Shown here piece after piece: positions 1-36,450 of a stretch of DNA of 40,738 bases; within the stretch, counting starts at the first letter, position 1, and the number at the start of each line of letters is the position of its first letter. The stretch is from a virus. Lineage: Duplodnaviria > Heunggongvirae > Uroviricota > Caudoviricetes. The stretch lies in the IMG/VR virus record IMGVR_UViG_640753023_000013; one strand, 5' to 3'. A program made the translations under genes and the position numbers. The notes beneath the pieces are model-generated. The model had not been told where the DNA came from. It made no database searches and worked only from the letters and a program-made list of their open reading frames with translations.

Positions 1-516
1 ATGAAATTTAAAAAATGTCTTCTGCCTGTGGCAATGTTAGCGTCATTCACTCTGGCAGGATGCCAGTCAAATGCTGATGATCATGCCGCCGATGTTTATC
101 AAACCGATCAACTGAATACCAAACAAGAAACTAAAACCGTTAATATTATTTCCATTCTTCCCGCAAAAGTTGCCGTAGACAACGCCCAAAATAAACGGAA
201 CGCACAAGCCTTCGGCGCGCTTATTGGCGCTGTCGCTGGCGGTGTTATCGGCCACAACGTCGGGTCTGGCAGCAATTCCGGAACGACGGCAGGTGCAGTT
301 GGCGGCGGAGCTGTAGGCGCGGCAGCGGGTTCTATGGTGAATGATAAAACCTTAGTGGAAGGTGTTTCTTTAACATATAAGGAAGGCACCAAAGTGTATA
401 CCTCCACCCAGGTGGGTAAAGAGTGCCAGTTTACGACAGGTTTAGCCGTTGTTATTACCACGACGTATAACGAAACGCGTATTCAGCCAAATACCAAATG
501 TCCTGAAAAGAGCTAA
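1..516 (+). CDS. Outer-membrane lipoprotein with glycine-zipper segment (SlyB/YcfJ-like); host flank or terminal cargo
   Basis: Signal peptide with lipobox LAGC; Gly/Ala-rich segment GALIGAVAGGVIGHNVG resembling E. coli YcfJ/SlyB glycine zipper. Confidence 0.6.
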   Translation: MKFKKCLLPVAMLASFTLAGCQSNADDHAADVYQTDQLNTKQETKTVNIISILPAKVAVDNAQNKRNAQAFGALIGAVAGGVIGHNVGSGSNSGTTAGAVGGGAVGAAAGSMVNDKTLVEGVSLTYKEGTKVYTSTQVGKECQFTTGLAVVITTTYNETRIQPNTKCPEKS

Positions 517-531
517 TAATCAGGAGGAGTC

Positions 532-1071
532 ATGAAGAAAGTTTTTCTTTGCGCCATCTTAGCCTCCTTAAGCTATCCGGCTATCGCCTCATCATTGCAG
601 GATCAACTCTCGGCTGTCGCAGAAGCGGAACAGCAAGGTAAAAATGAAGAGCAAAGGCAGCATGACGAATGGGTCGCGGAGCGCAACAGGGAAATCCAGC
701 AAGAGAAGCAACGTCGCGCAAACGCCCAGGCCGCGGCTAATAAAAGAGCGGCAACGGCAGCAGCGAATAAGAAAGCTCGTCAGGATAAACTGGACGCCGA
801 AGCCACTGCGGACAAAAAACGCGATCAAAGTTATGAAGATGAGCTACGTAGCTTAGAGATTCAGAAACAAAAACTGGCGCTGGCGAAAGAAGAAGCCCGC
901 GTCAAGCGCGAAAACGAATTTATCGATCAGGAACTGAAGCACAAAGCTGCGCAAACCGATGTGGTGCAATCTGAAGCTGACGCAAACAGAAATATGACTG
1001 AAGGCGGTCGCGATCTGATGAAAAGCGTGGGTAAAGCAGAAGAGAATAAATCAGATAGCTGGTTTAACTAA
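532..1071 (+). CDS. Secreted, highly charged coiled-coil protein of unknown function
   Basis: N-terminal signal peptide, Lys/Glu/Ala-rich body, RBS AGGAGG upstream; no family recognised. Confidence 0.5.
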   Translation: MKKVFLCAILASLSYPAIASSLQDQLSAVAEAEQQGKNEEQRQHDEWVAERNREIQQEKQRRANAQAAANKRAATAAANKKARQDKLDAEATADKKRDQSYEDELRSLEIQKQKLALAKEEARVKRENEFIDQELKHKAAQTDVVQSEADANRNMTEGGRDLMKSVGKAEENKSDSWFN

Positions 1072-1109
1072 ACGATGTTAGTAACTTCAAACCTATAATT
1101 CTTTAGGAT

Positions 1110-1141
1110 AAAAAAACCCTCTGTAGTAACAGAGGGTTTTG
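1110..1141. terminator. Rho-independent terminator, bidirectional (A-run, hairpin, T-run)
   Basis: aaaaaa-CCCTCTG-tagtaa-CAGAGGG-tttt between the convergent + gene and the minus-strand lysis genes. Confidence 0.6.
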
Positions 1142-1266
1142 TTCATTCATAGTGCAGGGTCAAATCATTCCCACTCAATTATTTACGGATACCATAAACA
1201 ATTGATTGATAACAACTTTCTGCAACATGATTTTCACCGTACCGTTTTATATACCGTCGCCGGAAA

Positions 1267-1764
1267 TCAGTGCCACGATTTTTGCTTCTTCAGTGAATCG
1301 TATTGCTGTTCGCAGGATTCTCCTGCAATCCGATACTTTTCAGCCTCAGCTGCTGTTGCGTTGTAAACTCGATTGCTTTCTTCAAGCATGTCGGCGAGCA
1401 CACCGATGACCTTGCTGGCTGGCGTGCCAGTGGGGAAAGATCCGGTATAGTGTTCGGCGAGTCGCTTGGTTTTGTCAAGCTCGGCGCGCAGGCTGTCAGC
1501 AGCGGCATTAGCATGCTCAGCATCAACACGCGCCACATCGATACGGGATTGTGCTTCACGTTCAATTTGTGTTTTCTCCTGATCACGTTGTGACCTGGCC
1601 TTATCATCAGCCTGTTTCTGATCTTCCTGTGCCTGCGCATACCCGGCATCGTACTGGCGGCTGCCGTGTATATTCCAGGCAACCACTCCGACGATGAACA
1701 GAGCAGCAAGCATCAACACGATAAGCAGCTGTTTCCAATATGCTTTTACGAATGTCAGGATCAT
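1267..1764 (-). CDS. Rz-like i-spanin (lysis)
   Basis: N-terminal TM helix then charged coiled coil; immediately downstream of endolysin with 4-nt overlap. Confidence 0.7.
1290..1538 (-). CDS. Rz1-like o-spanin lipoprotein embedded in the +1 frame of Rz
   Basis: Signal peptide with lipobox LLTAC followed by proline-rich short mature part, entirely inside Rz; exact start uncertain. Confidence 0.5.
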   Translation of the reverse strand: MWRVLMLSMLMPLLTACAPSLTKPSDSPNTIPDLSPLARQPARSSVCSPTCLKKAIEFTTQQQLRLKSIGLQENPANSNTIH

Positions 1765-2390
1765 ACCGCCAGCACCTTACTGGCATTGATGTATCGCGCG
1801 CGCCGGTCGTCGATGCCGTTCCGGCCACCATTGATAATCAGAGTTACACGTGCAATATCGCCGGTATACTTCATGCATCCTTTGCTGGCAAAGAACCACG
1901 CCGCGCTACGAGCCGCATATTCGTCCTGCGCCAGCAGTTCAGGGCTCTCCAGCAGGTCAACCTTCAGACCGTTTCCGCAATCACGATAGTTATTCAAACC
2001 GGTAATCTGGATAAGTCCGCGCCCTCGGTAATTCCAGCCATCACCAGGGGCATTGTTCCCCATGCGTTTGCTGTATACCAGATTTGCGATCGCGCGCTGG
2101 CGCTCAAGTGGCAATGGTGGTTCACCAGCACGGCGCCCCAGTGCATTAGCCTGCCCCTGAGTGAGACGCCCAGCCCGAACGAAGTTAGCCAGTCCGCTGA
2201 CACTGTAGTTGAAATTCTCTTGCAACCTGGTGAAGCCCCCAGACTCATGCCCGACTTGAGCAATAAACATTGCCTGATCTTCTGCTTTGCTGATACCAAA
2301 CTCTTTCATCGCAGAAGTTATATGCGAGAACCAGCGTGCGGCCAGTGCCTCGCTGATACCAGCAGCTCGCTGGAATTGTTTAATCTCCAT
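1761..2390 (-). CDS. Endolysin, glycoside hydrolase family 19 (chitinase-like)
   Basis: Motif [12 protein letters not shown] typical of GH19 phage endolysins; ATG at 2390 with GAGG RBS (ORF track extends upstream to 2555). Confidence 0.85.
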
Positions 2391-2688
2391 GTTTAGACCT
2401 CGATACTTTAAAAATTTGAACGACGTTACCGCGCGTTTTAATAACCGCAGCCAGCATGACAGCGTTGATAATGACCTCAGATAAATCCACAGCCATTGGC
2501 GTACGTAACCAGATTGCATAGGCGACTCGAACAGGAATACTGGCCGCAGCAACAATCAGGAAATAAGCAAGCCATCCTCCCCACCTTCGATGTTGAGAGC
2601 CGTTACGCCGGAATGTGACAACGCGAATTGCTATGCCAGTGCAAATAACTGCATTGGTGATAAGCAAAAAAAACTCATGCGTTACCAT
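2380..2688 (-). CDS. Holin-family membrane protein (holin or antiholin)
   Basis: 102 aa, two or three predicted TM helices, GGAGA RBS, overlaps endolysin start. Confidence 0.6.
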
Positions 2689-3079
2689 CGTCTTTTCTCC
2701 CCGGAATTAACTCGCGTGGATTATCGGAACGGTGATAGAGCCATATACCAATACGCACAGCGACAATTGCTGACACGAATGCGCCTGCAGAGAAAACAAT
2801 CCCTTTTTCAAAAGAGTCCTGCGTGATGGTAGGGATCAGGCTGGCTATGCCGATAAGAATTGATGCTGCTGGTTTGTAAAAGAGAAGGCCGCAAAGAAAG
2901 CTGAGCATCGACAGGAGCACCCGGCGACGGATGGGGTACTCTACTGCAGAGGTAACAAAAATTACCGCCCCAGCCAAAGCCCCTAAAGCAACCTCCGGAG
3001 GGACACCTGCAATAACCGCAGCAAGAGAACCAAAACTAAGCAACTGATTTAATTGCTCACTTGTTACTTGAGCAGACAT
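2675..3079 (-). CDS. Holin-family membrane protein
   Basis: 134 aa, three or four hydrophobic helices, AGGAG RBS, first gene of the lysis cassette. Confidence 0.6.
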   Translation of the reverse strand: MSAQVTSEQLNQLLSFGSLAAVIAGVPPEVALGALAGAVIFVTSAVEYPIRRRVLLSMLSFLCGLLFYKPAASILIGIASLIPTITQDSFEKGIVFSAGAFVSAIVAVRIGIWLYHRSDNPRELIPGRKDDGNA

Positions 3080-3360
3080 ACTTTCTCCTGTTTACTATCT
3101 ATAAGCCAGTCAATTATTGATGACTAAACCCGCATAGTAAACCATATATGAATCATTATTGTTCCGTATCATATATCTCAATAAAAGTACTAATGATTTT
3201 ACAGAACGAGCCAGCAGAGTGGGGGCAGTTGTACAGGAACCATAGACTTAATTTTGTATTTAATAATGCTATGGTGTAATAAACCTGAACATGTATTTAA
3301 AATACGTACTGATTCATGATAGAATTCAAAGATAACTTTTCACAAACTCCGTTTTTGATA

Positions 3361-3388
3361 CCCGCAAAATATTGCGGGCTTTTTTTTA
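3361..3388 (+). terminator. Hairpin plus T-run oriented for + strand transcription, between tailspike and lysis cassette
   Basis: CCCGCAAAATATTGCGGG followed by tttttttt; orientation is opposite to the flanking genes. Confidence 0.4.
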
Positions 3389-6300
3389 ACGTTCTTCCAG
3401 AGACTGAATCCGCTCTTTTATCTTATCCATTTCTCTGCGCTGCCATGCTGCCTCGATATAGAATAAGAGATCAGGTCTGACCCCCCATCTAGATCCTGCT
3501 GGCGTTATTTCAACGCGCTCAATGATGTCTTCCATTACCATCACTGGATTATCATCCTCATCAACAATGATGCTCCCGTCATTATCAGTCAGCGGCATTT
3601 CCCTTTGGCCAGTAATGACGTCATCATATACTGCGGGATAATCGTCATAGCAAAGAAAGGCATAGCGGCATGTTGTGCTTTCTTCTTCCATGAGTCCGTG
3701 AGAAATAAGAACATCACGAAGTTGCTGCGCGATTACACCATGATGTATCCTCGCCCCTTCTTCCCCCTTTATAGCGACAGCGTTCAGCCATTTATAAGCG
3801 ATATACCTGACGTCACCCCAGGCATCCAGCAATGCTTCGTCAGGAGAGACCGGCTCTGTCTTTAATGTTCCGTCACTGGTAACCACAGGATTGGAGCCAA
3901 GATAAACTGTCGAGAACCTGTTTCCCGGACCACCAAGAGCATTTACATTATCAAGATAAGGTTTAACATCTCCGTTCTCAAAAAGATGTTCGAGTGCGTT
4001 ATATACCGCGCGACGTGGAGTACTGCTTCCGGAACCATGCAACGTTATCATTGCACCATCTGCTGAAGACGTTGTTTCACCTCCGCTAACGATTAATCTC
4101 TGAGCGGTAACATCATCAGACGGTACTTTCTTCGCAATAATGGCGTAATTACCCTCAAGTTTGACTTCCGCGCGAACTTGTCCTGATGTACCTGCATGGA
4201 CAGTCAGTGACTGGACGGCAACATCATCTGTGAAATCAACGGGTACAGGAACCGTCCTCACGCCTGACGTCGACATAAAAGTAGGAAGCGTTCTGTTAGG
4301 AGTGGCTCCGTAGACAAAATCCCTTGAAACAAATTCTTCCTGTTTAATTTTCACCCTGAAACAATACAAATCAGCCGGGTGACCATCGTGAACATAAGGA
4401 TATTTTCTGTTGTTATCCCCTATGCTCCATGGGTTTAGAAAGTCTTCCCCACCGAAAATGTAGTACAGCCAGTTGTCTTTGATACAAACTGAACCAACAC
4501 CAACCGCAGAGTTAACTATTCCGCCCTGATAAATCTGATCAGTAACATTAACCCACTCTACATTATCCAGACTCCACTCATTGACGTTAACTCTGGTCAT
4601 AAATGTTCTTGGATAATTTCCTGCATAACGGTTATCAGGTTCTCCTCCTTCCCACTCACCAAATGCGCGCTCACTGCCAAAAATAATCAGCTCATCGCCA
4701 ACTTTGGCAAAAGGAAGGTTTGAGTGATGAACATTATTTGGGAAGCGAAGAGAATTCCATGATGTACCTAAATCAGAGCTTCTGTGCAATGAACTACCGG
4801 GTTGAGTACTTAATGTCCCCCTGGTCGTCAGATACAGAATGCCATCATAATATTTTACACATGGCTCAGATGCATTCGCCTCATATTCTGCAGGTATGCG
4901 TCTGCGAACAAAGCTACCAGGAGAACCGAAAGCATCAGAGAAATAGAGTATCCCAAGCTCGCGTGGACCAATATCACCATTATGGTAGCCAACAGCAAAA
5001 CTGTTATCGCTAATCGTCGCAAAACTGTGAATCTCAGTAACAGGAGTGCTTCCGTCAACAAAAGAAGGAATAGTTCCAAGACTGGTTTTTCTCCATGGTG
5101 ACGAGTGAAATGATGTACCAAAACTCCAGTATCTACCCTCGTTATTCTGATCCACATCCTGGGTATTTTGCGTCGTAACTGTAAAAGTATTTTTATCAAT
5201 AACAGTAGTCACCGTCATATTCCCGGTAACACCTGTAACACCAGAGTTTGAGAAGTTGACAAAATCACCAGCAAATAATCCGTGATCAGTAATGCGAATA
5301 TAAGCGACTTGCTGATTTGCTGCTTTCGTTATACCACCATAAACGCGAAGGCTGCGACTCATTGGGCGATCCCACAACTCTGCAACCTGCAGTTTATTTC
5401 CGCTCACGGTCCGCGTCTCAATTACAGCAAAAAGGCGATTTCTGACAACCCCCATACTCATGCAGTGATAGTTAACTGTGGGATAGTTTTCATGTAAATC
5501 TGTAAGCCATTCCGGCGTTGTCCAGGTCTTCCCGTCATCTCCTGAGCGAACCCATGCAACATGGAGGTTATTTACACCATGGCGGTCTCCAGCCATAAAA
5601 GGCGCATAGATGACATTGTCATATACAAACGTTTTATCCTGCGTCCAGGCGTTGTACCACGGTGTATCTGTAATTTTAAATAACTCTCCCTGGATAAAAT
5701 CTTCAGAAGCATAAAAAAGAGGCTGGCCCGGTATTCTCTCAAATAAAAAACGAGCATTTTTAAATCGACTGACATCCGGAAGAGTTGATACTTTAAAAGT
5801 AAGCCCTAATCCGTCAATTTTATAACCTGGAGATGAGGCTTCAAGGCACGCGCTTATTGCAGTGGAATCGTCATTTATACCATCACCAACAGCTCCAAAA
5901 TCTTTGGGGCTAATAGCATCACGCATTTTATCCTGGAACGTTCGGTACACAGCCCCAGAACCATACTGAATAAACCAACCAAAACCACCAACAACCCCGG
6001 CGATTGCAGCATCGACATAATTACGCATTGAGCGATTATTTACAGCGTCCTGCTCAAATGATGGATCTGCAAGGTTAGAAATTTTGTTTTGCTTTGCATC
6101 GTAATATTTTGCAAGCAAAGATGGTTTCATCAATGCACGTCTGAACCACCCAAAACATTGCTGGATCAGCATCGTCAGGTAGTCAAAGGCATCTTCATGC
6201 ACTTCGGGGAAAAATTTTCCCTGATTGCGAAGGTCTGTCTCCTGCACTACATCAAGCACACGATCTATCGTAATTCGCCATCCAGTAGCAAGCGGAGACG

Positions 6301-6505
6301 GAAGAACCACAGAACCGCCACTATAAGTGCCCGCCCCAGTTACCGTATAACCGGTATCCAGAACCAATTCTGTTACGTTCCCGTTCAGGTCAGACACCTG
6401 AACAACCAGGTCTGATTTTCTGAAAATTCGAAAAGTATACGGAAACGATGTCGTAACGCCGTTACCGGTGTATTCGTTGTGGTCAACTTCGGTTGAGACC
6501 GTCAT
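3386..6505 (-). CDS. Tailspike: N-terminal particle-binding domain, sialidase-like beta-propeller with two Asp-boxes, C-terminal intramolecular chaperone (peptidase S74-like); probable capsule depolymerase
   Basis: Asp-boxes SGDDGKTW and SSDLGTSW; C-terminus resembles the T5 L-shaped-fibre/endosialidase chaperone domain (SDGTLKTEP, FLCYDDY). Confidence 0.8.
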   Translation of the reverse strand: MTVSTEVDHNEYTGNGVTTSFPYTFRIFRKSDLVVQVSDLNGNVTELVLDTGYTVTGAGTYSGGSVVLPSPLATGWRITIDRVLDVVQETDLRNQGKFFPEVHEDAFDYLTMLIQQCFGWFRRALMKPSLLAKYYDAKQNKISNLADPSFEQDAVNNRSMRNYVDAAIAGVVGGFGWFIQYGSGAVYRTFQDKMRDAISPKDFGAVGDGINDDSTAISACLEASSPGYKIDGLGLTFKVSTLPDVSRFKNARFLFERIPGQPLFYASEDFIQGELFKITDTPWYNAWTQDKTFVYDNVIYAPFMAGDRHGVNNLHVAWVRSGDDGKTWTTPEWLTDLHENYPTVNYHCMSMGVVRNRLFAVIETRTVSGNKLQVAELWDRPMSRSLRVYGGITKAANQQVAYIRITDHGLFAGDFVNFSNSGVTGVTGNMTVTTVIDKNTFTVTTQNTQDVDQNNEGRYWSFGTSFHSSPWRKTSLGTIPSFVDGSTPVTEIHSFATISDNSFAVGYHNGDIGPRELGILYFSDAFGSPGSFVRRRIPAEYEANASEPCVKYYDGILYLTTRGTLSTQPGSSLHRSSDLGTSWNSLRFPNNVHHSNLPFAKVGDELIIFGSERAFGEWEGGEPDNRYAGNYPRTFMTRVNVNEWSLDNVEWVNVTDQIYQGGIVNSAVGVGSVCIKDNWLYYIFGGEDFLNPWSIGDNNRKYPYVHDGHPADLYCFRVKIKQEEFVSRDFVYGATPNRTLPTFMSTSGVRTVPVPVDFTDDVAVQSLTVHAGTSGQVRAEVKLEGNYAIIAKKVPSDDVTAQRLIVSGGETTSSADGAMITLHGSGSSTPRRAVYNALEHLFENGDVKPYLDNVNALGGPGNRFSTVYLGSNPVVTSDGTLKTEPVSPDEALLDAWGDVRYIAYKWLNAVAIKGEEGARIHHGVIAQQLRDVLISHGLMEEESTTCRYAFLCYDDYPAVYDDVITGQREMPLTDNDGSIIVDEDDNPVMVMEDIIERVEITPAGSRWGVRPDLLFYIEAAWQRREMDKIKERIQSLEER

Positions 6506-6609
6506 GTTAAATCTCCAGATAGTCGCAGCACCCGTTGCGCCGCATATCTGGTTATTCTATTACCTGGAAAACCACATATGGATAGAAAGGCTGTAAATAC
6601 GAATAGATA

Positions 6610-7969: not shown

Positions 7970-8041
7970 CGGGCGGCGGCACAGGGATGAGCCTTTAAAT
8001 AATTCTGTACAGATTGCAGACTGGGGGTGAATAGCGTACTA

Positions 8042-8056
8042 TTACCTCAAGGGTAA
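8042..8056. promoter_or_regulatory. Operator palindrome TTACC-TCAAG-GGTAA (site 2, perfect), overlapping a candidate promoter (TTGCAG-N17-TACTAT)
   Basis: 60 bp upstream of the moron gene at 8116. Confidence 0.55.
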
Positions 8057-8115
8057 GAAAGCATTTTTAATCTTCCCTTCAAAACGCGTCCTGTAGCCAA
8101 ACATGGGAGGACGAA

Positions 8116-8748
8116 ATGAGAACAAATACAACAAGAAAAGCGATGCCATACATTATCCCAGAAGCAGATTTCGATAGAAAACTGAACATGTCTGAGAAGA
8201 ACACTAGTCACACCGAAAGCTACTTAGCGAAAGGTGTGGTTGATTTCGTTCTTCCGGGATTCACAACACCTTATGGTTATCGCCTTGTAAAATCTTGTAA
8301 TGGCGATCATTACAGAATGATTACTACCAGCGATACTCCAGAAACGGTGTATGCGGTTAAGTTAATCTTTCGGGAAGATATCGTCGAAGCCAAAAGAACA
8401 TGTACGCAGATCATGGTATGGCGTACGCCTAATGTTATTCATGACCGTGCTGTTCATGGTTTGCCTCAGATTTTTTTTCAGTTCTTCCTAGAGCAATATG
8501 CGATCGTTGTATCTGATGAGCAACAAACAATCGATGGGAGAAGATTCTGGGAAAGAATGATTTCTTGGGCTATAAACACCCCAGGATATAATGTATACGT
8601 TTCAGATGGCTCTGAAGAAGATAGACCTCTTAGCTTCATGACATCATGGGATGATTTCTATAGCCAGTGGGCTGATTTCTGTTGGGGCAGTGATAAAGAT
8701 GTGCATACCCACAGACTACTGGTTATAAGCAAAGATAAACTGCATTAA
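8116..8748 (+). CDS. Hypothetical protein, AT-rich moron with own terminator; no recognisable domain
   Basis: 210 aa, GGGAGG RBS, AT-rich composition unlike neighbours. Confidence 0.65.
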   Translation: MRTNTTRKAMPYIIPEADFDRKLNMSEKNTSHTESYLAKGVVDFVLPGFTTPYGYRLVKSCNGDHYRMITTSDTPETVYAVKLIFREDIVEAKRTCTQIMVWRTPNVIHDRAVHGLPQIFFQFFLEQYAIVVSDEQQTIDGRRFWERMISWAINTPGYNVYVSDGSEEDRPLSFMTSWDDFYSQWADFCWGSDKDVHTHRLLVISKDKLH

Positions 8749-8752
8749 TAGA

Positions 8753-13922: not shown

Positions 13923-16432
13923 TGCGGAATATCTCCGGAGAATCTCTGACGCTTCTGTGTCAGATTAAGAACAACGGGAGAACCATCATCTTTCAGCAGA
14001 TAACCAGTACCAAGTTTCACCAGGTACTGACTATCGCCGTAACTTTGCAAACCATACTGACCAGGCGGTGTTTTTATCCCGGAGCCGACAACTTGTTCAT
14101 TCCAAGCCTGATTAACCTGCTTATCGAATTGCTCTGCAGACATTCCCCACGGCAAAAGGACATTCCCCATTCCGTTATAGTCATGCACACCACCTGTAGC
14201 TACGTTAACAGCCTGTTTCCAGACATCATTGTCAATTTCGCCTGATACCACGCCTTTTTTCGCCATCACACCAGCGTAATAATCCTTTGCGATCTCGTAT
14301 GCCATTGATGCGCCCTGAGCGTCACCAGCAAATGCATCCTTCACCATGTCAGAAAACTCAAGGCGAAGATCAGCATCTTTAGGCATCGGAATACCTTTCG
14401 CATCATCAGTACCTTTACGAGCCGCCGCGCCAGCAAGAATTGTCTGCGCAGCGGTTTCAGGAGACACGGAAACATCCGGATTAAACCAGTTTTTTTCTGC
14501 CAAAATACCACCAGGCTTATCCATCAGTATCCCAGCAACGGCAGCAGATGGAGCGTTGGCACTGATCTGCTGTAGTGCTGACATATACACCTGCCCACCA
14601 CCAGTGCTCTGCCTGATGGTATCGAGATATGCTGCCTGTTGGGAAACTGGAGCATCACGAAAGAAAACACCGATCTGATTGGCCTCGTCTTTGGAAAAGA
14701 ACGTCAGTGGAGTGCCATATGACTTAGCAAGGTCACTGACCTGAGCGGCACGCAAGGCAACGCTCTGTCCAAAGTTATCCTTATTGCTCATGTCGATAGG
14801 CTTTGCCTGTCCGGAGGCAAGAGAGAACTGCACAGGATCCGACTGCCGCTGCTTTATCACCTGATTTGCAGCCGAAACAACGTTGTCATAAAGAGTTGCG
14901 CGTGCCGCATACCCCTCCCCTGTATCACCAGTATCCGGGCGTAATTGCTCAACATATGCTGTAATGCTGCTTGTCGGCATGTTGCGGAAAGAGCCTATAT
15001 ACTGTCCGGCGATCTGCGTATTCTTAAACTCGGTATATCGCAGGTTTCCTTCTCTGACTCCATAAGCTGCAATAAAATCATCCTCACCAGGTGGGTTAGG
15101 AAATTCAATGCCACGCATATACGCAGCCGTCGCATCGCGAACCCGGCTGTCGAGCATCGTTTTATATTCAGCCTGCTGTTGTCTGGCTAGTGCATCAGTC
15201 TGTCGCAACACGCTGGCCTGATCTGATTCACTTAAAGCATCGAACCAGGCTACACCGGTATAACGTTTATTTTTTGTCGGTAGCTGAGAAAGCCCCAGCG
15301 CAGCACTAACACCTGCAGTTAACTGCTGATCACTGTATGGCTGGCTACCGTTTTCATGATGGATAATGGCTGCACAAAGCGCCTTCAGGGTATCAGGATT
15401 TGATGCATCGAGAGGCTCATCAGCAGAAACGCCAAGTTGTTCGCACACTGCTTTGATATACGACATAGTGTCATTTTTATCAGTAGGCGGTGCCCAGCGA
15501 TTAATTATCTCGCTGACGGTATCAATACCCTGCCGCTGATACGACATCAGGTTCCGCCCTAATGCACGAATACCGTGTTCAGGGGTTTCGAATTTGGCAA
15601 AGCGACCATCATCACCAGTCTGCCCAACCCACGGATTAGTTTTGCTGTATTCAAGATTGCCGGGGTTATTGTTGCGTATACCGCGGGTACGATCGGAAGA
15701 GCCACTATCTGCTACAGCACGGCGAGAACCAGCAGCAGTATCGCTTAACTCGCCGTTTTGCTGTCTTACCTGAAGATAGTTTGCTCCAATAGCATTTTGA
15801 GCAGTTGCTTTTGCTGTTGCTTCTTTAAACTCGATTTTCTTGGCCTGGATTTGCTCGTCACTCCAGCCATGTGCAATGCCGTAATCCTCAATTTGCTGGA
15901 AAGTTTGCTTATTAGCCAATACGTATGCGGCGTTGTCGCCATACAATGCTGCGGCATTTTTACCATTGTTCAGCAGCGTAGCCTGAAACTGGCCTTCTTC
16001 GTAGGCATTTATTTGCCCTATCTCGTGCCGCCCGGCCTGCGTAGTGAACTGAATGCGCTGCTGCTGCGCCTGCTGCATGAAAGCATTACGAGCCTGTTCA
16101 TCCGGCAGCGACATAGCCAGTTGTTCGACCTGAGCATCAAACTTCTGCGTATACTCCTGACCTTTTCCAATAGCATTTTTCCCTTTCAGGTTAAGCAAAC
16201 CTGTTTCAGGGTTATTCAGCAGATCGCTGCTTATCTGGCTTAAGCTAAGAGAAGCATCCTGAGCCATAGCAACATTCGCACGCTGTTTTGCCTGCGCAAT
16301 AATACCTGCATATTGCTCTGCAACATCGCCAAGTACATCACCGACATTTGGTGTCTGAAACGATGAGAATCCCTGCGTCGAAATCCCTCTGCTCTGAACC
16401 TGACGGCCCGATGTTGTTGGTACAACTGGCAT
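13919..16432 (-). CDS. Large internal virion protein, 837 aa, with conserved RGIRNNNPGNL motif segment
   Basis: Synteny; overlaps neighbours by 4 nt. Confidence 0.55.
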   Translation of the reverse strand: MPVVPTTSGRQVQSRGISTQGFSSFQTPNVGDVLGDVAEQYAGIIAQAKQRANVAMAQDASLSLSQISSDLLNNPETGLLNLKGKNAIGKGQEYTQKFDAQVEQLAMSLPDEQARNAFMQQAQQQRIQFTTQAGRHEIGQINAYEEGQFQATLLNNGKNAAALYGDNAAYVLANKQTFQQIEDYGIAHGWSDEQIQAKKIEFKEATAKATAQNAIGANYLQVRQQNGELSDTAAGSRRAVADSGSSDRTRGIRNNNPGNLEYSKTNPWVGQTGDDGRFAKFETPEHGIRALGRNLMSYQRQGIDTVSEIINRWAPPTDKNDTMSYIKAVCEQLGVSADEPLDASNPDTLKALCAAIIHHENGSQPYSDQQLTAGVSAALGLSQLPTKNKRYTGVAWFDALSESDQASVLRQTDALARQQQAEYKTMLDSRVRDATAAYMRGIEFPNPPGEDDFIAAYGVREGNLRYTEFKNTQIAGQYIGSFRNMPTSSITAYVEQLRPDTGDTGEGYAARATLYDNVVSAANQVIKQRQSDPVQFSLASGQAKPIDMSNKDNFGQSVALRAAQVSDLAKSYGTPLTFFSKDEANQIGVFFRDAPVSQQAAYLDTIRQSTGGGQVYMSALQQISANAPSAAVAGILMDKPGGILAEKNWFNPDVSVSPETAAQTILAGAAARKGTDDAKGIPMPKDADLRLEFSDMVKDAFAGDAQGASMAYEIAKDYYAGVMAKKGVVSGEIDNDVWKQAVNVATGGVHDYNGMGNVLLPWGMSAEQFDKQVNQAWNEQVVGSGIKTPPGQYGLQSYGDSQYLVKLGTGYLLKDDGSPVVLNLTQKRQRFSGDIPQ

Positions 16433-16444
16433 CTTATTATCCCC

Positions 16445-16984
16445 TTATCGACCGGTTGGAGTGCCAACAGCAGCAGAAATCGGCGCAGCCTTCTGAGAGA
16501 ACGGGCTCCACGTTCCGCCGCCCATCTGGTATGCACCGTATGCTTTTAGTGGTGCCGTTAACAAAGTGCTGGTCATCGATGATTTAGCAGCCGACTGAGC
16601 AGCAGCCCCCTGTGCCTGAGCATTCATTCCCTGAACCTGATACCCATATGCCTCACGCTGAGCATTATTCACTGTCGTTAACGCATCAAGAGTGCCGAAC
16701 TGAGCATTATCCGCAAAAACGTCAAGAGCTGTTCCGCTACTTAATTCCGCACCGGTAGCCCCCATAGTGGCCGCCGCAGTGCCTGAGCGTTGACGCATTT
16801 CACGACGACGCTGATCCGCTTCAATATTCCCACGATTGATTGAATCCTGTGCCTGAGCTTCAGCAATTTCAGCATTCCGATCAGCTATGGCTGACTGGTA
16901 TTTTGCCTGCTTGCTCTGGCTGTACATTGACGCGGCTGTGGATGCCACTGTGACGGCAACCAAAGCGATGGCTGGGTTACACAT
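16445..16984 (-). CDS. Virion internal protein (T7 gp14-like by position)
   Basis: 179 aa with N-terminal hydrophobic segment. Confidence 0.5.
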   Translation of the reverse strand: MCNPAIALVAVTVASTAASMYSQSKQAKYQSAIADRNAEIAEAQAQDSINRGNIEADQRRREMRQRSGTAAATMGATGAELSSGTALDVFADNAQFGTLDALTTVNNAQREAYGYQVQGMNAQAQGAAAQSAAKSSMTSTLLTAPLKAYGAYQMGGGTWSPFSQKAAPISAAVGTPTGR

Positions 16985-29175: not shown

Positions 29176-29519
29176 ACTATTAATTTCGTTTCATGCCAGC
29201 CTTTAGTCACCCAGCATTGTGAGTCACCATTACACGGGCATGAATTAACGGGAACTCTCTCGCCGCACTTACCGCAAAGTTTTCTGCTGATCGATTTTAT
29301 ACGCCCGCGCACACGTGCATCATCCTGGCGGATCAGCAGCGCGATGTACTCGGCCATTTCATAGGGATCGCGACCAGGGCGCCGGGCGGCGCAGTTCCGC
29401 GCCAGCATTTCCTGCTCCTGCTTATCCAGCACCAGTTCAATTTTGCGCTCACCGGCGGCGGACTGCCGAGCGCGCTGCGCGGCTTTGCGTTCTGCGGGGG
29501 ATTTAGCCACGAATCGCAC
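29172..29519 (-). CDS. Cys-rich hypothetical protein (CxxC...CPC), candidate late-gene regulator
   Basis: 115 aa, basic N-terminal half, C-terminal CGKCGERVPVNSCPCNGDSQC; GTG start, weak RBS. Confidence 0.45.
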   Translation of the reverse strand: MRFVAKSPAERKAAQRARQSAAGERKIELVLDKQEQEMLARNCAARRPGRDPYEMAEYIALLIRQDDARVRGRIKSISRKLCGKCGERVPVNSCPCNGDSQCWVTKGWHETKLIV

Positions 29520-29625
29520 TCCACGCCAGATTGATTAATGACTCCCAGGCAATATAAACCAGGATACCAGCAGCCAGGCCGAAACCAATCACCATGGCAT
29601 AAAGCAGAGCGTTGCACTTGTTCAT
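29503..29625 (-). CDS. 40-aa single-TM membrane peptide
   Basis: ATG overlapping the upstream stop (TAATG) with strong RBS GGAGGTGA; hydrophobic core. Confidence 0.5.
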   Translation of the reverse strand: MNKCNALLYAMVIGFGLAAGILVYIAWESLINLAWSAIRG

Positions 29626-30155
29626 TACTTCACCTCCTGCGGCGGTTCCGGTAGAGGCATCCAGTACAAGGCGTTCCCTAACCACGATAAAGTGCCGTCG
29701 CTCAACTCCACGTATTCCCCTTGTACCTGTCCTGCCATATACTCGCCGTGCTTTGAATAAATTAAAATCCAATCATCTTGAGCGGGCATTCGCTCACTAC
29801 AGCTTATCCAACCATCCGGAGTTACCGGATAGTTGCCCGACAGCTCGTTCAACTTGTAAGTTTGGCTTACAGGTTCGGCTTCCAGTTCTGCAATGCGCTT
29901 CTCTGCAGCTTCCAGCTCAACACGCAGCTTCCCTACCGTTAGCGCAATATCCTCGTTCTCCTGGTCACGGCGTTTGATGTATTGCTGGTTTCTTTCCCGT
30001 TCATCCAACAATGCCAGCGCGATATCTGGCGAAAAGTGCTTCATAAAATCGTTAAGCGCATTAATTCGCTGATCGAAAGGCATTACAGGTGCTTCACCAG
30101 CAATTTTTGTTTTTTCAGCGATTTCACGAAGCTTTTGATAATCAATCTTGCTCAC
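29625..30155 (-). CDS. Ead/Ea22-like protein with C-terminal DUF551
   Basis: C-terminal W...YWMPLPEPP signature of DUF551; GTG start with GGAGG RBS. Confidence 0.65.
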   Translation of the reverse strand: MSKIDYQKLREIAEKTKIAGEAPVMPFDQRINALNDFMKHFSPDIALALLDERERNQQYIKRRDQENEDIALTVGKLRVELEAAEKRIAELEAEPVSQTYKLNELSGNYPVTPDGWISCSERMPAQDDWILIYSKHGEYMAGQVQGEYVELSDGTLSWLGNALYWMPLPEPPQEVK

Positions 30156-30565
30156 TGGTTGCCTCCTTCGCGAAGCTGTTCAGCAATACTTACGCATATC
30201 TCTGCGCCTCTAATCAGCCCCGGAACGTTCTTGTTTGGCCCAACTTCACCATCAACAAAATCAATCATCGCGTTACGAGCCATATCCACCCCCTGCGCAC
30301 GTACTTCAGCCAGGAGAGCGTCGGTAGCTGGGGTTTCCGTGAAGTTGTCCTCCCAACCGTAGTACTCCTGACGACAGAAGTTATTAAATTCCTTCTCCGA
30401 CTGTTTAAGCGCCGCATTCTCCGCTGCCAGCGCCGCGCACCTGGCCTCAAGAGCGGCAACCACTTCCTGATGGTCTTTGTACTTAACGTATGAGCCGGAG
30501 ATGTCATCACCTTCGGTGTTTAGCCATGCGTCATTGCAATTCACTGCGTAGGTTCTGATGCTCAT
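30152..30565 (-). CDS. Ead/Ea22-like protein
   Basis: Shares AAENAALK and TPATDALLAEV segments with the 31045-31524 product. Confidence 0.6.
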   Translation of the reverse strand: MSIRTYAVNCNDAWLNTEGDDISGSYVKYKDHQEVVAALEARCAALAAENAALKQSEKEFNNFCRQEYYGWEDNFTETPATDALLAEVRAQGVDMARNAMIDFVDGEVGPNKNVPGLIRGAEICVSIAEQLREGGNQ

Positions 30566-30744
30566 GCTGATGCTCTCCCGCCCCTGACAGACGCCAGGCC
30601 AGTCAATAAACTATCCGCAATGCCTACCCTCAGACGTGCGCGCAGGATAAATGCCGTTATAACCGGCAAAATATATGCTACCCATTCATCTTGCGTTGCC
30701 TGTTCCGCCGCCTCACGCAGTGCCTGATAGTCAATCTTGCTCAC
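30562..30744 (-). pseudogene. Possible remnant of an Ea22-like gene (N-terminal 15 codons conserved, then divergent)
   Basis: GTG start with GGAGG RBS inside a 33-nt near-repeat of the start region of the 29625-30155 gene. Confidence 0.3.
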
Positions 30745-31048
30745 TGGCTGCCTCCTTTGCTGGGCTTTCGAACTTCTGAGTGGTTGTATCAAACTCAAAC
30801 AACTTAACCACGTCATCAAACAGGACATAATCGCCATCAGAATCTTCAGTCATGTCAGCGCCACAATCCTGACCGAACGAGTCACAACCATCCATATCAA
30901 GCTCGTATCGCTTGAGGTTTGCGATATTTGATAAATTCAGCGCCAGTACAGCTAGGTCATAAACCTCGTCAGCGGTATACCCTGCACCATGCCCATACAT
31001 TTCAATGCGGGATATGATTTCTTCTACACGTTGTTTTGTGATCGTCAT
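30731..31048 (-). CDS. Hypothetical acidic protein
   Basis: 105 aa, AGGGAGG RBS, ATGA overlap with the upstream gene. Confidence 0.5.
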   Translation of the reverse strand: MTITKQRVEEIISRIEMYGHGAGYTADEVYDLAVLALNLSNIANLKRYELDMDGCDSFGQDCGADMTEDSDGDYVLFDDVVKLFEFDTTTQKFESPAKEAASEQD

Positions 31049-31524
31049 TTTTGCTCGCCTCCCTGTTCTTCCAGAAAAATACGCATAGCCTCAAGCATCT
31101 CTTCGGTGTCATACGGAGACAGCTTGTCACGCAGGATGTGTTCAATGCTGTTAATGAACTTTCGGATTGCTTTGCGTTCAATTTCAGCCAGGAATGCGTC
31201 GGTGGCTGGGGTGTCTGATTGCAGAGACTTTGCGCGATAGTCATTCCACCCTCTTGCATACATGGGATTAACTTGCACTCCATCTTTTACGCAATATGCC
31301 TGCCCTCCACGGTTGATAACCTTGATTTCGTCCATAGCGCCAGACTTCAGACCCGCATTCTCCGCCGCCAGCGCATTAGCACGCACCAGTTGCACTTCCA
31401 GTTGCGTTGCCAAATCGCTGAGCAGCTTTGCCACACTGCGCATATCAACGGCACCACATTCTGCTTTCAGTTCCGAAGCCATCTCATGCCCGGCGGCAAC
31501 TAACCCTTTGATATTACTTTCCAT
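31045..31524 (-). CDS. Ead/Ea22-like protein
   Basis: Paralog of the 30152-30565 product. Confidence 0.6.
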   Translation of the reverse strand: MESNIKGLVAAGHEMASELKAECGAVDMRSVAKLLSDLATQLEVQLVRANALAAENAGLKSGAMDEIKVINRGGQAYCVKDGVQVNPMYARGWNDYRAKSLQSDTPATDAFLAEIERKAIRKFINSIEHILRDKLSPYDTEEMLEAMRIFLEEQGGEQK

Positions 31525-35245: not shown

Positions 35246-35545
35246 ATGAACGTTAATCAGCAGAAAAATCTTCAAAAAATCATGCTGGCATTCGACAAGG
35301 ACTACCGCCTGTCAGAACAGCTATATGACCGACAAGTTGAACTGATTGAGAGCATCCGACTTCATCAACTGTCCTCAACTTTCGACGTTGTAACAGGCAA
35401 AGGCGTTCGTCAGGAAGTGCTGGAGGCTGCTAAAGACAGCCCTGAGTTCGAAGAACTGATAGATTCCTACCGGCGCGAGGCAATGGCAATTATCGCCCGC
35501 TGGGATCTGGCGGATCGGATTGATGGGCAGAGGGAAGCGGCATGA
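35246..35545 (+). CDS. Hypothetical early protein
   Basis: ATG at 35246 with GGGAGGG RBS. Confidence 0.5.
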   Translation: MNVNQQKNLQKIMLAFDKDYRLSEQLYDRQVELIESIRLHQLSSTFDVVTGKGVRQEVLEAAKDSPEFEELIDSYRREAMAIIARWDLADRIDGQREAA

Positions 35546-36441
35546 TGCAGAACGCTGGAATCATGGATAGAACAAAATACATCGGAGGAAGCGATGTTGC
35601 AGGGATTCTTGGAATTAGCCCATGGCGCACCCCGCTTGAGGTTTATCTGGATAAGGTCCAGCCACGTGTCAAACCAGTAGACCCAAGCAAGCAGAAAGTT
35701 TTCACGCGTGGCCAGCGTATGGAGCCATACGTAATAGACCTGCTTTCTGAGGAAACAGGGATGGAAATCGTTCATCGCGGAAACCGCTATATCCACCGTG
35801 ATTACGATTTTATTGCAGCTGAGATCGATGCAGAAGCAGCGTCAGGCGAGAACATTGAGATCAAAACAGTTAGTCCGTTCAAAGCCAAAGAATGGGGAGA
35901 AATCCAGACAGATGCAATTCCTGTGCATTACACGGCCCAGGCCATGCACGGGTTGATGGTTACAAACAAACAGGTATGCGTTTTCGGTGTGCTTATCGGT
36001 GGCGACGACTTCCGAATCTATCGGGTTGAGCGTGATGAAGAAACTATCCAGGCGATCTTAGAAAAAGAAATCGCTTTCTGGGACCGAGTGAAAAATCTTA
36101 ACCCGCCGGAAGCTACCAGCGTAAGCGATGTATCGCTGATGTTTGAGAAAGATGCCGGGACAAGTATCGAGGCTGACGGAAAGGCACTCGCACTATTCAA
36201 CGATCTACGAGACATGAAGTCACGCAGAAAATCACTGGAAGAAGAAATAGCTATATCAGAAGAGAAGCTGAAGATGTACATGCAAGAGCACTCAGTCCTG
36301 ACCCTGGACGGAAAGCCGCTCTGCACATGGAAATCTCAGATCAGCAACAGATTCGACCAGAAGCTATTCCAGTCAGTACACCCTGAGTTATTCGAAAAAT
36401 TCAAAACAACAACGACACAACGCGTCTTCAGAATGAAGTAA
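35542..36441 (+). CDS. YqaJ-type exonuclease (recombination)
   Basis: N-terminal segment recalled as YqaJ-like (GGSDVAGILGISPWRTPLEVY); directly upstream of recT. Confidence 0.8.
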   Translation: MMQNAGIMDRTKYIGGSDVAGILGISPWRTPLEVYLDKVQPRVKPVDPSKQKVFTRGQRMEPYVIDLLSEETGMEIVHRGNRYIHRDYDFIAAEIDAEAASGENIEIKTVSPFKAKEWGEIQTDAIPVHYTAQAMHGLMVTNKQVCVFGVLIGGDDFRIYRVERDEETIQAILEKEIAFWDRVKNLNPPEATSVSDVSLMFEKDAGTSIEADGKALALFNDLRDMKSRRKSLEEEIAISEEKLKMYMQEHSVLTLDGKPLCTWKSQISNRFDQKLFQSVHPELFEKFKTTTTQRVFRMK

Positions 36442-36450
36442 GGAGAAAAA

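What the first reader, a model, noticed from the sequence alone, without database searches (positions are those of the whole stretch)
3386..6505. Tailspike with sialidase-like Asp-box propeller and self-cleaving chaperone: probable capsule depolymerase
Two canonical Asp-boxes (S-x-D-x-G-x-T/S-W) and a C-terminal intramolecular chaperone domain match the architecture of K1 endosialidases. This predicts specificity for a polysialic acid (K1-type) or related acidic capsule and suggests the lysogen carries or once carried such a capsule.
Basis: partly seen in the sequence, partly recalled or inferred. Interest (0 to 1): 0.6.

Follow-up and report, generated by a model that had tools for sequence, protein, structure and literature searches.

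The report
K1 capsule-cutting prophage tailspike (endosialidase)

Summary
Observation and interpretation both hold. Window 3386-6505 (- strand) is one intact 1039-aa ORF. It matches all four Pfam endosialidase domains end to end (propeller E=1e-233) plus the Peptidase_S74 chaperone. Residues 205-876 are 65% identical to the crystallised K1F endosialidase. Both Asp-boxes, the five K1F catalytic residues and the Ser/Lys self-cleavage dyad are present.

The DNA is 99.9% identical to ORF7 of the published temperate phage vB_EcoP_ZX5 (Uetakevirus, host O87:H52:K1). The protein equals RefSeq WP_000218907.1.

The gene is a mosaic:
- an epsilon15-type N-terminal attachment domain;
- a 2.39-kb catalytic, stalk and chaperone block 99.5% identical to siaK1 of the P22-like prophage CUS-3. 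It differs by 4 amino acids in aa 234-1025, and GenBank records direct-assay evidence of endo-alpha-sialidase activity for CUS-3 siaK1.

The window is a ZX5-like prophage next to yfgH-yfgI. Among 5426 complete E. coli genomes, 71 carry the full gene. An indirect count indicates that all 25 testable ones also carry the K1 polysialyltransferase gene neuS (about 6% background).

One side observation is mildly new: many K1 strains carry both this prophage and a CUS-3-type prophage, with near-identical endosialidase modules.

Novelty: already known. Interest: low.

The parts
3386..6505 (-). Complete tailspike precursor gene, 1039 aa, 115.6 kDa, including the stop codon
   Evidence: ORF list and translation. 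99.9% DNA identity to ZX5 ORF7 and to 71 E. coli chromosomes, where it is annotated 'endosialidase catalytic beta-propeller domain-containing protein'. Mass.
6513..6516 (-). GGAG ribosome-binding site, 8 nt upstream of the ATG
   Evidence: Read directly from the sequence.
5927..6505 (-). aa 1-193: epsilon15/Uetakevirus-type N-terminal domain, inferred to attach the spike to the virion
   Evidence: 97.9% DNA identity to Uetakevirus phiv142-3 over 1185 nt, running from upstream sequence into the tail-fibre gene and ending near gene nt 596. 64-72% protein identity to the tailspike N-termini of Salmonella phages VB_ST_E15 and SPN1S and of E. coli O157 typing phage 10. PDB 28lx/8ck1 'Dpo31/Dpo36' domain 1, E=1e-35, aa 1-209.
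5807..5926 (-). aa 194-233: lineage-specific junction segment, the first half of the endosialidase N-terminal extension, containing DFGAVGDGINDD
   Evidence: About 60% DNA identity to both phiv142-3 and CUS-3. As protein it is found at 100% only in ZX5 and two Phi05 prophage records; CUS-3 is 74% and K1F 60% over the 101-aa query that spans it.
3415..5807 (-). Gene nt 699-3091: 2.39-kb block 99.5% identical to CUS-3 siaK1, covering the propeller, barrel, stalk and most of the chaperone
   Evidence: blastn: 2393 nt, 12 mismatches, no gaps. The boundaries are visible in the base-by-base comparison. Only 4 aa differences in aa 234-1025.
5693..5893 (-). aa 205-271: End_N_terminal domain (PF12218)
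   Evidence: Pfam E=5.9e-32, profile 1-67/67.
4343..5692 (-). aa 272-721: catalytic six-bladed beta-propeller (PF12217)
   Evidence: Pfam E=1.4e-233, profile 1-367/367. 69% identity to endoNF in this domain.
5111..5359 (-). aa 383-465: beta-barrel domain inserted in the propeller (PF12195); a polysialic acid binding site in K1F
   Evidence: Pfam E=3.2e-46, profile 1-83/83. The K1F binding sites are described in PMC12632334.
5522..5545 (-). Asp-box 1, SGDDGKTW (aa 321-328)
   Evidence: Regex and shuffle control. Aligns to SGDDGQTW of endoNF.
4757..4780 (-). Asp-box 2, SSDLGTSW (aa 576-583)
   Evidence: Regex and shuffle control. Aligns to SRDIGQTW of endoNF.
4667..5581 (-). Span holding the five active-site residues: H309 (5579-5581), R515 (4961-4963), E547 (4865-4867), R562 (4820-4822), R613 (4667-4669)
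   Evidence: They align to endoNF H350, R549, E581, R596 and R647. These residues are named catalytic and mutation-intolerant in PMC12632334.
3878..4342 (-). aa 722-876: stalk domain (PF12219, End_tail_spike); last residue of the mature protein is T876
   Evidence: Pfam E=8.4e-78, profile 1-160/160. The alignment to endoNF ends at T910.
3389..3877 (-). aa 877-1039: C-terminal intramolecular chaperone domain (Peptidase_S74), 18.7 kDa, predicted to be released by self-cleavage between T876 and S877; dyad S877/K882
   Evidence: Pfam. PDB 3gw6 E=5e-67. S877 and K882 align to endoNF S911 and K916. The cleavage mechanism is described in PMC3828593.
3361..3378 (.). GC-rich hairpin directly after the stop codon
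   Evidence: Terminator scan and sequence. The T-run lies on the + strand, so this is not a canonical terminator for the tailspike transcript.

Best explanation
The ORF encodes the receptor-destroying tailspike of an intact epsilon15-like (Uetakevirus, ZX5-type) prophage. The prophage is integrated next to yfgH-yfgI, at the guaA 3' end, of an E. coli that is very probably K1-encapsulated.

Proposed mechanism:
- The 115.6-kDa precursor trimerises with the help of its C-terminal chaperone domain (aa 877-1039).
- That domain then removes itself by Ser877/Lys882-catalysed cleavage of the T876-S877 bond, leaving a 97-kDa mature subunit.
- The N-terminal about 190 residues fix the trimer to the epsilon15-type tail.
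[quoted passage not shown] The virion thus tunnels through the K1 capsule to the outer membrane.

Shown here: domain content, conserved residues, near-identity to an assayed enzyme and to a plaque-forming K1 phage, and the association with neuS. Inferred from the K1F literature: trimerisation, self-cleavage, the attachment role of the N-terminal domain and hydrolysis itself.

Origin: the gene is a recombinant. Its catalytic, stalk and chaperone block is shared at 99.5% DNA identity with the unrelated P22-like prophage CUS-3. The block is bounded on both sides by homologous but about 60%-identical sequence. This fits homologous exchange between two pre-existing endosialidase genes better than a de novo domain fusion.
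For: - Pfam: four endosialidase models matched end to end, plus Peptidase_S74.
- PDB: endoNF E=0 over aa 205-876; phi92 endosialidase 4hiz E=2e-271; K1F chaperone 3gw6. Identity to endoNF is 65%.
- Asp-boxes, catalytic residues and the Ser/Lys dyad are all present, with residue roles taken from PMC12632334 and PMC3828593.
- 99.9% identity to ZX5 ORF7, with one amino-acid difference. ZX5 is a viable temperate podovirus on an O87:H52:K1 host that integrates at the guaA 3' end.
- 99.5% identity to CUS-3 siaK1, which carries an IDA activity annotation; 4 aa differences.
- The window is collinear with ZX5 at 97-99% over most of its length, with full-length structural ORFs. Host flank is yfgH/yfgI; an integrase lies at the far end.
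- N-terminal module is 64-72% identical to epsilon15-group tailspikes.
- neuS co-occurrence in 25 of 25 lysogen genomes.
Against: No direct evidence against. Limits:
- No enzymatic or structural experiment exists for this exact protein. In the parts of the ZX5 paper read here, the domains are named but no enzyme assay of ORF7 is mentioned.
- The window's own host capsule type cannot be read from 1.2 kb of flank.
- The neuS test is indirect (a count of matching places) and covers 25 genomes strictly, about 53 loosely. A K92-type neuS might cross-match.
- The hairpin after the stop codon lacks a U-tract on the gene strand, so the end of the transcription unit is unclear.
Confidence: 0.93

Rival explanations
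1. The prophage is defective or cryptic, so the intact endosialidase gene is a relic that is never deployed on a virion.
For: Some members of the population are decaying. The U-type gene is split by an IS3 element in strain 23CRST038, and the CUS-3-type copy in CE10 is frameshifted. The window differs from ZX5 in several blocks, for example 29510-31354 and 35546-37469.
Against: In the window the tailspike and the large structural ORFs have the same lengths as in plaque-forming ZX5: 824, 600, 837, 823, 559 and 491 aa. The integrase and lysis cassette are present. The blocks that differ carry functional-looking alternatives, YqaJ exonuclease plus RecT. ZX5 lysogens release 1e7 PFU/ml spontaneously.
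Confidence: 0.1
2. The enzyme targets a different or modified acidic polymer, for example K92 alternating alpha-2,8/2,9 polysialic acid, O-acetylated K1, or a non-sialic capsule, rather than plain K1.
For: Endosialidase homologues occur in the K92 phage phi92. Stalk and barrel residues tune host discrimination in K1F. Two of the four differences from CUS-3 lie in the stalk (G826R, T866I).
Against: The propeller active site is identical to that of CUS-3 siaK1. The ZX5 host is K1. All testable lysogens carry a close match to the UTI89 K1 neuS gene. Named lysogens are K1 serotypes: O1:K1:H7, O2:K1:H7 and O7:K1 CE10.
Confidence: 0.05
3. The protein binds polysialic acid but is catalytically dead, acting as an adhesin only.
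For: Catalytically inactive, binding-competent endosialidase variants are known and used as detection reagents (PMC5380687).
Against: All five catalytic residues are conserved. There are only four substitutions relative to the assayed CUS-3 enzyme in aa 234-1025, and none is at one of the five catalytic positions.
Confidence: 0.02

Closest known systems
ORF7 tail protein of temperate phage vB_EcoP_ZX5 (MW722083; Pathogens 2022, PMC9782041); same protein family as RefSeq WP_000218907.1
   Same: 3117 of 3120 nt are identical, with one amino-acid difference (S368R). Same Uetakevirus backbone, gene order and integration locus. The paper already describes an N-terminal tail-fibre domain, an endosialidase middle and a C-terminal chaperone, and a K1 host.
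   Different: Essentially nothing in the gene. The window prophage differs from ZX5 in a few accessory and recombination blocks. The paper calls the N-terminal domain 'T7-like'; here it is shown to be the epsilon15-group module.
CUS-3 endosialidase tailspike siaK1 (P22-like prophage of E. coli K1 RS218; Stummeyer et al. 2006, PMID 16689790)
   Same: aa 234-1025 are identical except A266V, G826R, T866I and A891T; 99.5% DNA identity over 2393 nt. Same enzyme, stalk and chaperone. Also a temperate podovirus of K1 strains.
   Different: The N-terminal virion-attachment domain is unrelated: P22-type with about 174 aa in CUS-3, epsilon15-type with about 193 aa here. The first about 30 residues of the endosialidase N-terminal extension and the last 14 residues are diverged alleles. 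CUS-3 carries the phase-variable O-acetyltransferase neuO next to the tailspike. No AAGACTC repeat exists in the window; a lysis cassette follows the tailspike instead.
EndoNF, the tailspike gp17 of lytic phage K1F (PDB 1v0e, 3gvl, 3gw6)
   Same: Same domain order. 65% identity over 672 residues. Both Asp-boxes, five catalytic residues and the S/K self-cleavage dyad are conserved.
   Different: K1F has a T7 gp17-type N-terminus on a lytic phage. The window protein has a 7-residue insertion (FVDGSTP, aa 482-488) and a longer, partly divergent chaperone tail.
Epsilon15-group (Uetakevirus) tailspikes, e.g. Salmonella VB_ST_E15 and SPN1S, E. coli phiv142-3 and O157 typing phage 10
   Same: The N-terminal about 166-193 aa are homologous: 98% to phiv142-3, 64-72% to the Salmonella and O157 phages. 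Same genomic position between the structural genes and the lysis cassette.
   Different: Their receptor-binding parts are beta-helix O-antigen or capsule enzymes unrelated to the endosialidase. Identity to phiv142-3 ends at about gene nt 578-596.

Membership tests
Phage endosialidase (endo-N-acetylneuraminidase; CAZy GH58 from own knowledge) | Six-bladed catalytic beta-propeller of the endosialidase type | tested here: met
   PF12217 E=1.4e-233, profile 1-367/367, aa 272-721. endoNF crystal sequence E=0, 69% identity in this domain.
Phage endosialidase (endo-N-acetylneuraminidase; CAZy GH58 from own knowledge) | Beta-barrel domain inserted into the propeller | tested here: met
   PF12195 E=3.2e-46, profile 1-83/83, aa 383-465, nested inside the propeller match.
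Phage endosialidase (endo-N-acetylneuraminidase; CAZy GH58 from own knowledge) | Two Asp-boxes (S-x-D-x-G-x-T/S-W) | tested here: met
   aa 321-328 and 576-583. None of 20,000 shuffles gave two matches. Both align to the endoNF Asp-boxes.
Phage endosialidase (endo-N-acetylneuraminidase; CAZy GH58 from own knowledge) | Active-site residues equivalent to endoNF H350, R549, E581, R596 and R647 | tested here: met
   H309, R515, E547, R562 and R613. Residue list from PMC12632334.
Phage endosialidase (endo-N-acetylneuraminidase; CAZy GH58 from own knowledge) | Stalk (tailspike) domain following the propeller | tested here: met
   PF12219 E=8.4e-78, profile 1-160/160, aa 722-876.
Phage endosialidase (endo-N-acetylneuraminidase; CAZy GH58 from own knowledge) | Endo-cleavage of alpha-2,8 polysialic acid by a homotrimer | not testable with these tools
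   Inferred only. CUS-3 siaK1, which differs by 4 aa in aa 234-1025, carries an IDA activity annotation. ZX5 infects a K1 host.
Peptidase S74 / C-terminal intramolecular chaperone domain (CIMCD) | Domain homology directly after the stalk | tested here: met
   PF13884 E=1.7e-10 (41.4 bits against a cut-off of 22), aa 877-937. 3gw6 E=5e-67. Other CIMCD-bearing spikes also match: 9vvr, 3gud, 7y5s, 6eu4.
Peptidase S74 / C-terminal intramolecular chaperone domain (CIMCD) | Ser-Lys dyad (endoNF S911 and K916), with cleavage N-terminal of the Ser | tested here: met
   The motif VVT|SDGTLK gives S877 and K882 at the aligned positions. Mechanism from PMC3828593. Actual cleavage was not tested.
Uetakevirus (epsilon15-like) tailspike | Conserved N-terminal module shared by tailspikes of the genus | tested here: met
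   98% to phiv142-3; 64-72% to VB_ST_E15, SPN1S and O157 typing phage 10 over aa 1-166.
Uetakevirus (epsilon15-like) tailspike | Encoded in a Uetakevirus genome between the virion genes and the lysis cassette | tested here: met
   The window is collinear with ZX5 (taxonomy: Uetakevirus) at 97-99%. Holin, endolysin and DUF2514 genes lie downstream.

The most novel reading that the evidence does not exclude
K1 E. coli are frequently double lysogens of two unrelated podoviral prophages, P22-like CUS-3 and this epsilon15-like ZX5 type. Both carry the same endosialidase module, and ongoing homologous exchange between the co-resident copies keeps the modules at about 99.5% identity while the backbones stay unrelated.

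Evidence so far:
- Both copy types were located in one chromosome in at least 12 genomes, including IHE3034, CE10, APEC O18 and EC69.
- 44 of 60 lysogens show an extra endosialidase-like place.
- The shared block is bounded on both sides by homologous, diverged sequence.
- In CE10 the two copies share three variants seen in no other copy examined.

Against: in IHE3034 and EC69 the two copies keep the type-specific differences, so homogenisation is not general. Nine sequences are too few to judge.
Probability: 0.3. Interest if true: 0.35.

Novelty: already known. Interest (0 to 1): 0.12.

Why it matters
There is little new for phage biology. Endosialidases are the best-studied capsule depolymerases, and module swapping onto different phage backbones is the textbook example (PMC5380687). 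This exact gene is already in GenBank, RefSeq and a 2022 paper.

Its practical value is as a marker. The presence of this prophage tailspike predicts a neuS-positive (K1) host, the capsule type of neonatal-meningitis and avian-pathogenic E. coli. The enzyme is also a ready-made K1-specific depolymerase. The double-lysogeny and module-sharing observation could serve as a small natural model of recombination between co-resident prophages.

Tried and rejected
- neuO: I looked for the CUS-3-style phase-variable neuO gene next to the tailspike. Searching the AAGACTC heptad repeat with up to 1 mismatch gave 0 hits, so this prophage does not carry it.
- Within-genome homogenisation: I tested whether the two endosialidase copies in one genome are homogenised. 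They are not in IHE3034 or EC69; there is only a hint in CE10.
- Source of the junction segment: I looked for the donor of aa about 200-233 among phages. Nothing is closer than CUS-3 at 74% over the 101-aa query, apart from ZX5 and Phi05 themselves.
- Literature: searches for Ser911/Lys916 together with endosialidase, and for endosialidase + prophage + IHE3034, returned nothing. The dyad was documented through a MYRF-family paper instead.
- NCBIfam gave no informative hits for the neighbouring small ORFs.
- Structure prediction and fold search were considered and not run. With 65% identity over 672 residues to crystal structures and full-length Pfam matches, the fold is not in doubt, and a deep alignment would have needed an expensive database search.
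- A full intersection of neuS-positive and endosialidase-positive genomes was not possible, because the search tool lists at most 60 records. An indirect test using the count of matching places was used instead.
Full report
**1. The observation**

The coordinates given are exactly those of one ORF, window 3386..6505 on the minus strand. It is 1039 codons long and starts with ATG. A GGAG ribosome-binding site lies 8 nt upstream.

The pattern S-x-D-x-G-x-[TS]-W occurs twice in the product: SGDDGKTW at aa 321-328 and SSDLGTSW at aa 576-583. It occurs nowhere else in the six-frame translation of the 40.7-kb window. None of 20,000 shuffles of the protein gave two matches.

Pfam matches all four dedicated phage endosialidase models from end to end:
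- End_N_terminal, aa 205-271.
- End_beta_propel, aa 272-721, E=1.4e-233.
- End_beta_barrel, aa 383-465, nested within the propeller.
- End_tail_spike, aa 722-876.

Pfam also matches the Peptidase_S74 chaperone at aa 877-937.

**2. What it is**

*Comparison with solved structures.* The K1F endosialidase endoNF (1v0e, 3gvl) matches with E=0 over aa 205-876. The phi92 endosialidase (4hiz) matches at 2e-271. The K1F chaperone structure (3gw6) matches at 5e-67. Identity to endoNF is 65% overall and 69% in the propeller.

*Catalytic residues.* The numbering of chain 1v0e (position 1 = residue 245) reproduces all five residue identities in endoNF itself. On that numbering, the K1F residues H350, R549, E581, R596 and R647 align to H309, R515, E547, R562 and R613. 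A deep mutational scan calls these residues catalytic and mutation-intolerant (PMC12632334).

*Self-cleavage site.* The motif reads VVT|SDGTLK. S877 and K882 sit at the positions of endoNF S911 and K916. [quoted passage not shown] The predicted products are a 97.0-kDa mature subunit and an 18.7-kDa released chaperone.

**3. Identity and context**

*The gene.* It is 99.9% identical (3 nt, 1 aa) to ORF7 of the temperate phage vB_EcoP_ZX5, genus Uetakevirus. It is also 99.9% identical to two unannotated Phi05 prophage records. It is 99.3-100% identical to a CDS in 71 of 5426 complete E. coli genomes. RefSeq names that CDS 'endosialidase catalytic beta-propeller domain-containing protein'.

*The ZX5 paper.* It reports a short-tailed phage isolated on an O87:H52:K1 strain. 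It reports integration at the 3' end of guaA. It describes ORF7 as tail-fibre N-terminus + endosialidase + intramolecular chaperone (PMC9782041).

*The window.* It is collinear with ZX5 at 97-99% across most of its length and has structural ORFs of the same lengths. The layout is:
- positions 1-1071: host genes yfgH and yfgI, the neighbours of guaA in E. coli K-12 (own knowledge);
- positions 1267-3079: Rz-like (DUF2514), endolysin and two holin genes;
- positions 3386-6505: the tailspike;
- positions 39482-40738: an integrase.

The window is therefore an integrated, apparently complete ZX5-type prophage.

**4. Mosaic structure**

- Upstream sequence and gene nt 1 to about 578-596 are 97.9% identical to Uetakevirus phiv142-3, whose tail fibre has an unrelated C-terminal part. 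As protein, aa 1-166 are 64-72% identical to tailspike N-termini of epsilon15-group phages (VB_ST_E15, SPN1S, O157 typing phage 10). They also match domain 1 of the solved Dpo31/Dpo36 spikes.
- Gene nt 699-3091 are 99.5% identical to siaK1 of the P22-like prophage CUS-3: 12 mismatches in 2393 nt, no gaps. Only four amino-acid differences fall in aa 234-1025 (A266V, G826R, T866I, A891T).
- The stretch between these blocks (aa about 194-233, the start of the endosialidase N-terminal extension) and the last 14 codons are homologous to CUS-3 but only about 60% identical in DNA. This intermediate allele occurs only in the ZX5 lineage among 50,697 phage records.

Both borders of the near-identical block lie inside homologous coding sequence. 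The simplest history is therefore homologous replacement between two existing endosialidase genes. This is an inference.

CUS-3 siaK1 carries a GenBank annotation of endo-alpha-sialidase activity by direct assay (PMID 16689790). A review lists it among characterised endosialidases (PMC5380687).

**5. Mechanism**

The steps below come from the K1F literature and are transferred by homology.
- The precursor trimerises, guided by the C-terminal chaperone.
- The chaperone removes itself through the S877/K882 dyad.
- The epsilon15-type N-terminal domain anchors the trimer to the tail.
- The propeller, helped by polysialic acid binding sites in the barrel and the stalk, binds and endo-hydrolyses alpha-2,8 polysialic acid.
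- This lets the podovirus reach the outer membrane.

Nothing in the sequence contradicts any step. None was tested experimentally here.

**6. Does the lysogen have a K1 capsule?**

The window holds too little host DNA to say. I took neuS, the alpha-2,8 polysialyltransferase gene, from the UTI89 kps locus. I then searched the tailspike gene concatenated with neuS and compared the result with the tailspike gene alone.

- For all 25 lysogen records listed in both searches, the number of matching places per chromosome rose by exactly one.
- For about 28 further records, comparison with the search using only the catalytic part shows the same +1.
- Overall the number of places rose from 692 to 1020, so about 328 neuS places exist in 5426 genomes (about 6%).

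The association is therefore very strong. Named lysogens include O1:K1:H7 and O2:K1:H7 APEC strains and O7:K1 CE10, and isolates from cerebrospinal fluid.

Caveats: the test is indirect, a K92-type neuS could cross-match, and it was not run on all 71 genomes.

**7. Comparison and novelty**

The protein passes every sequence-testable criterion of the endosialidase family, of the S74 chaperone and of the Uetakevirus tailspike N-terminal module. Activity and oligomeric state are untestable here.

The same gene is published (ZX5) and annotated (RefSeq). Its enzyme block is the characterised CUS-3 enzyme. Attachment of endosialidase modules to different phage backbones (T7-like K1F, SP6-like K1E and K1-5, P22-like CUS-3, siphovirus 63D, myovirus phi92) is an established example of horizontal module exchange. 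Verdict: already known.

Only two small refinements are new. The ZX5 paper calls the N-terminus 'T7-like', but it is the epsilon15-group module. The exact recombination borders with CUS-3 do not appear in the parts of that paper read here.

**8. Side observation**

The endosialidase catalytic block occurs in 193 genomes but at 261 places. At least 12 chromosomes hold both a CUS-3-type and a ZX5-type copy, 170 kb to 2.1 Mb apart in the three genomes examined (IHE3034, CE10, EC69). These include IHE3034, CE10, APEC O18, EC69, N1, N21, N54 and ST95-32.

In a nine-sequence comparison the two types keep about 12 fixed differences. In CE10, however, the two copies share three variants not seen elsewhere. 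That is a weak hint of exchange between co-resident prophages.

Two literature searches (endosialidase + Uetakevirus; endosialidase + prophage + IHE3034) turned up no paper on this double lysogeny. The library is limited to open-access texts.

**9. Verdict**

The feature is real, functional-looking and ordinary. Interest is low (0.12) and the novelty class is 'already known'.

Noticed in passing
L007:4601-7546 and L008:301-3420 (IHE3034); L009/L010 (CE10); L011/L012 (EC69): Many K1 chromosomes carry two endosialidase prophages at once: a CUS-3-type (P22-like, with the neuO acyltransferase downstream) and the ZX5-type of this window. At least 12 genomes are confirmed, and 44 of 60 listed lysogens show an extra endosialidase-like place. 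The two CE10 copies share three variants absent from the other copies examined, a hint of exchange between them.
   Followed up: partly
L009:3600-6546 (CE10); NZ_AP045810.1 3431588-3436021 (strain 23CRST038): Some copies are decaying. The CUS-3-type tailspike of CE10 is annotated as frameshifted, and the ZX5-type gene of strain 23CRST038 is interrupted by an IS3-family element.
   Followed up: no
window 1-1700: The host flank is yfgH-yfgI. 202 of 5426 E. coli genomes have the same yfgI-prophage (DUF2514) junction, but only 71 have the endosialidase gene. The same backbone at the same attachment site therefore carries different tailspikes in other lineages, for example ST131.
   Followed up: partly
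window 3080-3385, hairpin at 3361-3378: A 306-nt non-coding gap separates the tailspike from the lysis cassette. The GC-rich hairpin directly after the stop codon has its T-run on the opposite (+) strand and an A-run on the gene strand. It looks like a terminator for transcription coming from the other direction, not for the tailspike transcript. phiv142-3 has an extra small ORF in the corresponding gap.
   Followed up: no
window 35542-37473, and 29510-31354, 7995-8751, 16321-16979: These blocks have no megablast match in ZX5. The recombination module here is a YqaJ-type exonuclease plus RecT, where ZX5 has a RecE-like exonuclease plus RecT. This is ordinary lambdoid-style mosaicism.
   Followed up: partly
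window 1-40738: No neuO-type AAGACTC heptanucleotide repeat occurs anywhere in the window. Unlike CUS-3, this K1 prophage carries no phase-variable capsule O-acetyltransferase.
   Followed up: yes
window 4082 (gene nt 2424): A synonymous A occurs where ZX5, IHE3034, CE10, EC69 and all CUS-3-type copies examined have C. The yfgI-prophage junction also has no 100% match among the complete genomes (best 99.1%). The source strain is therefore probably not in that collection.
   Followed up: no
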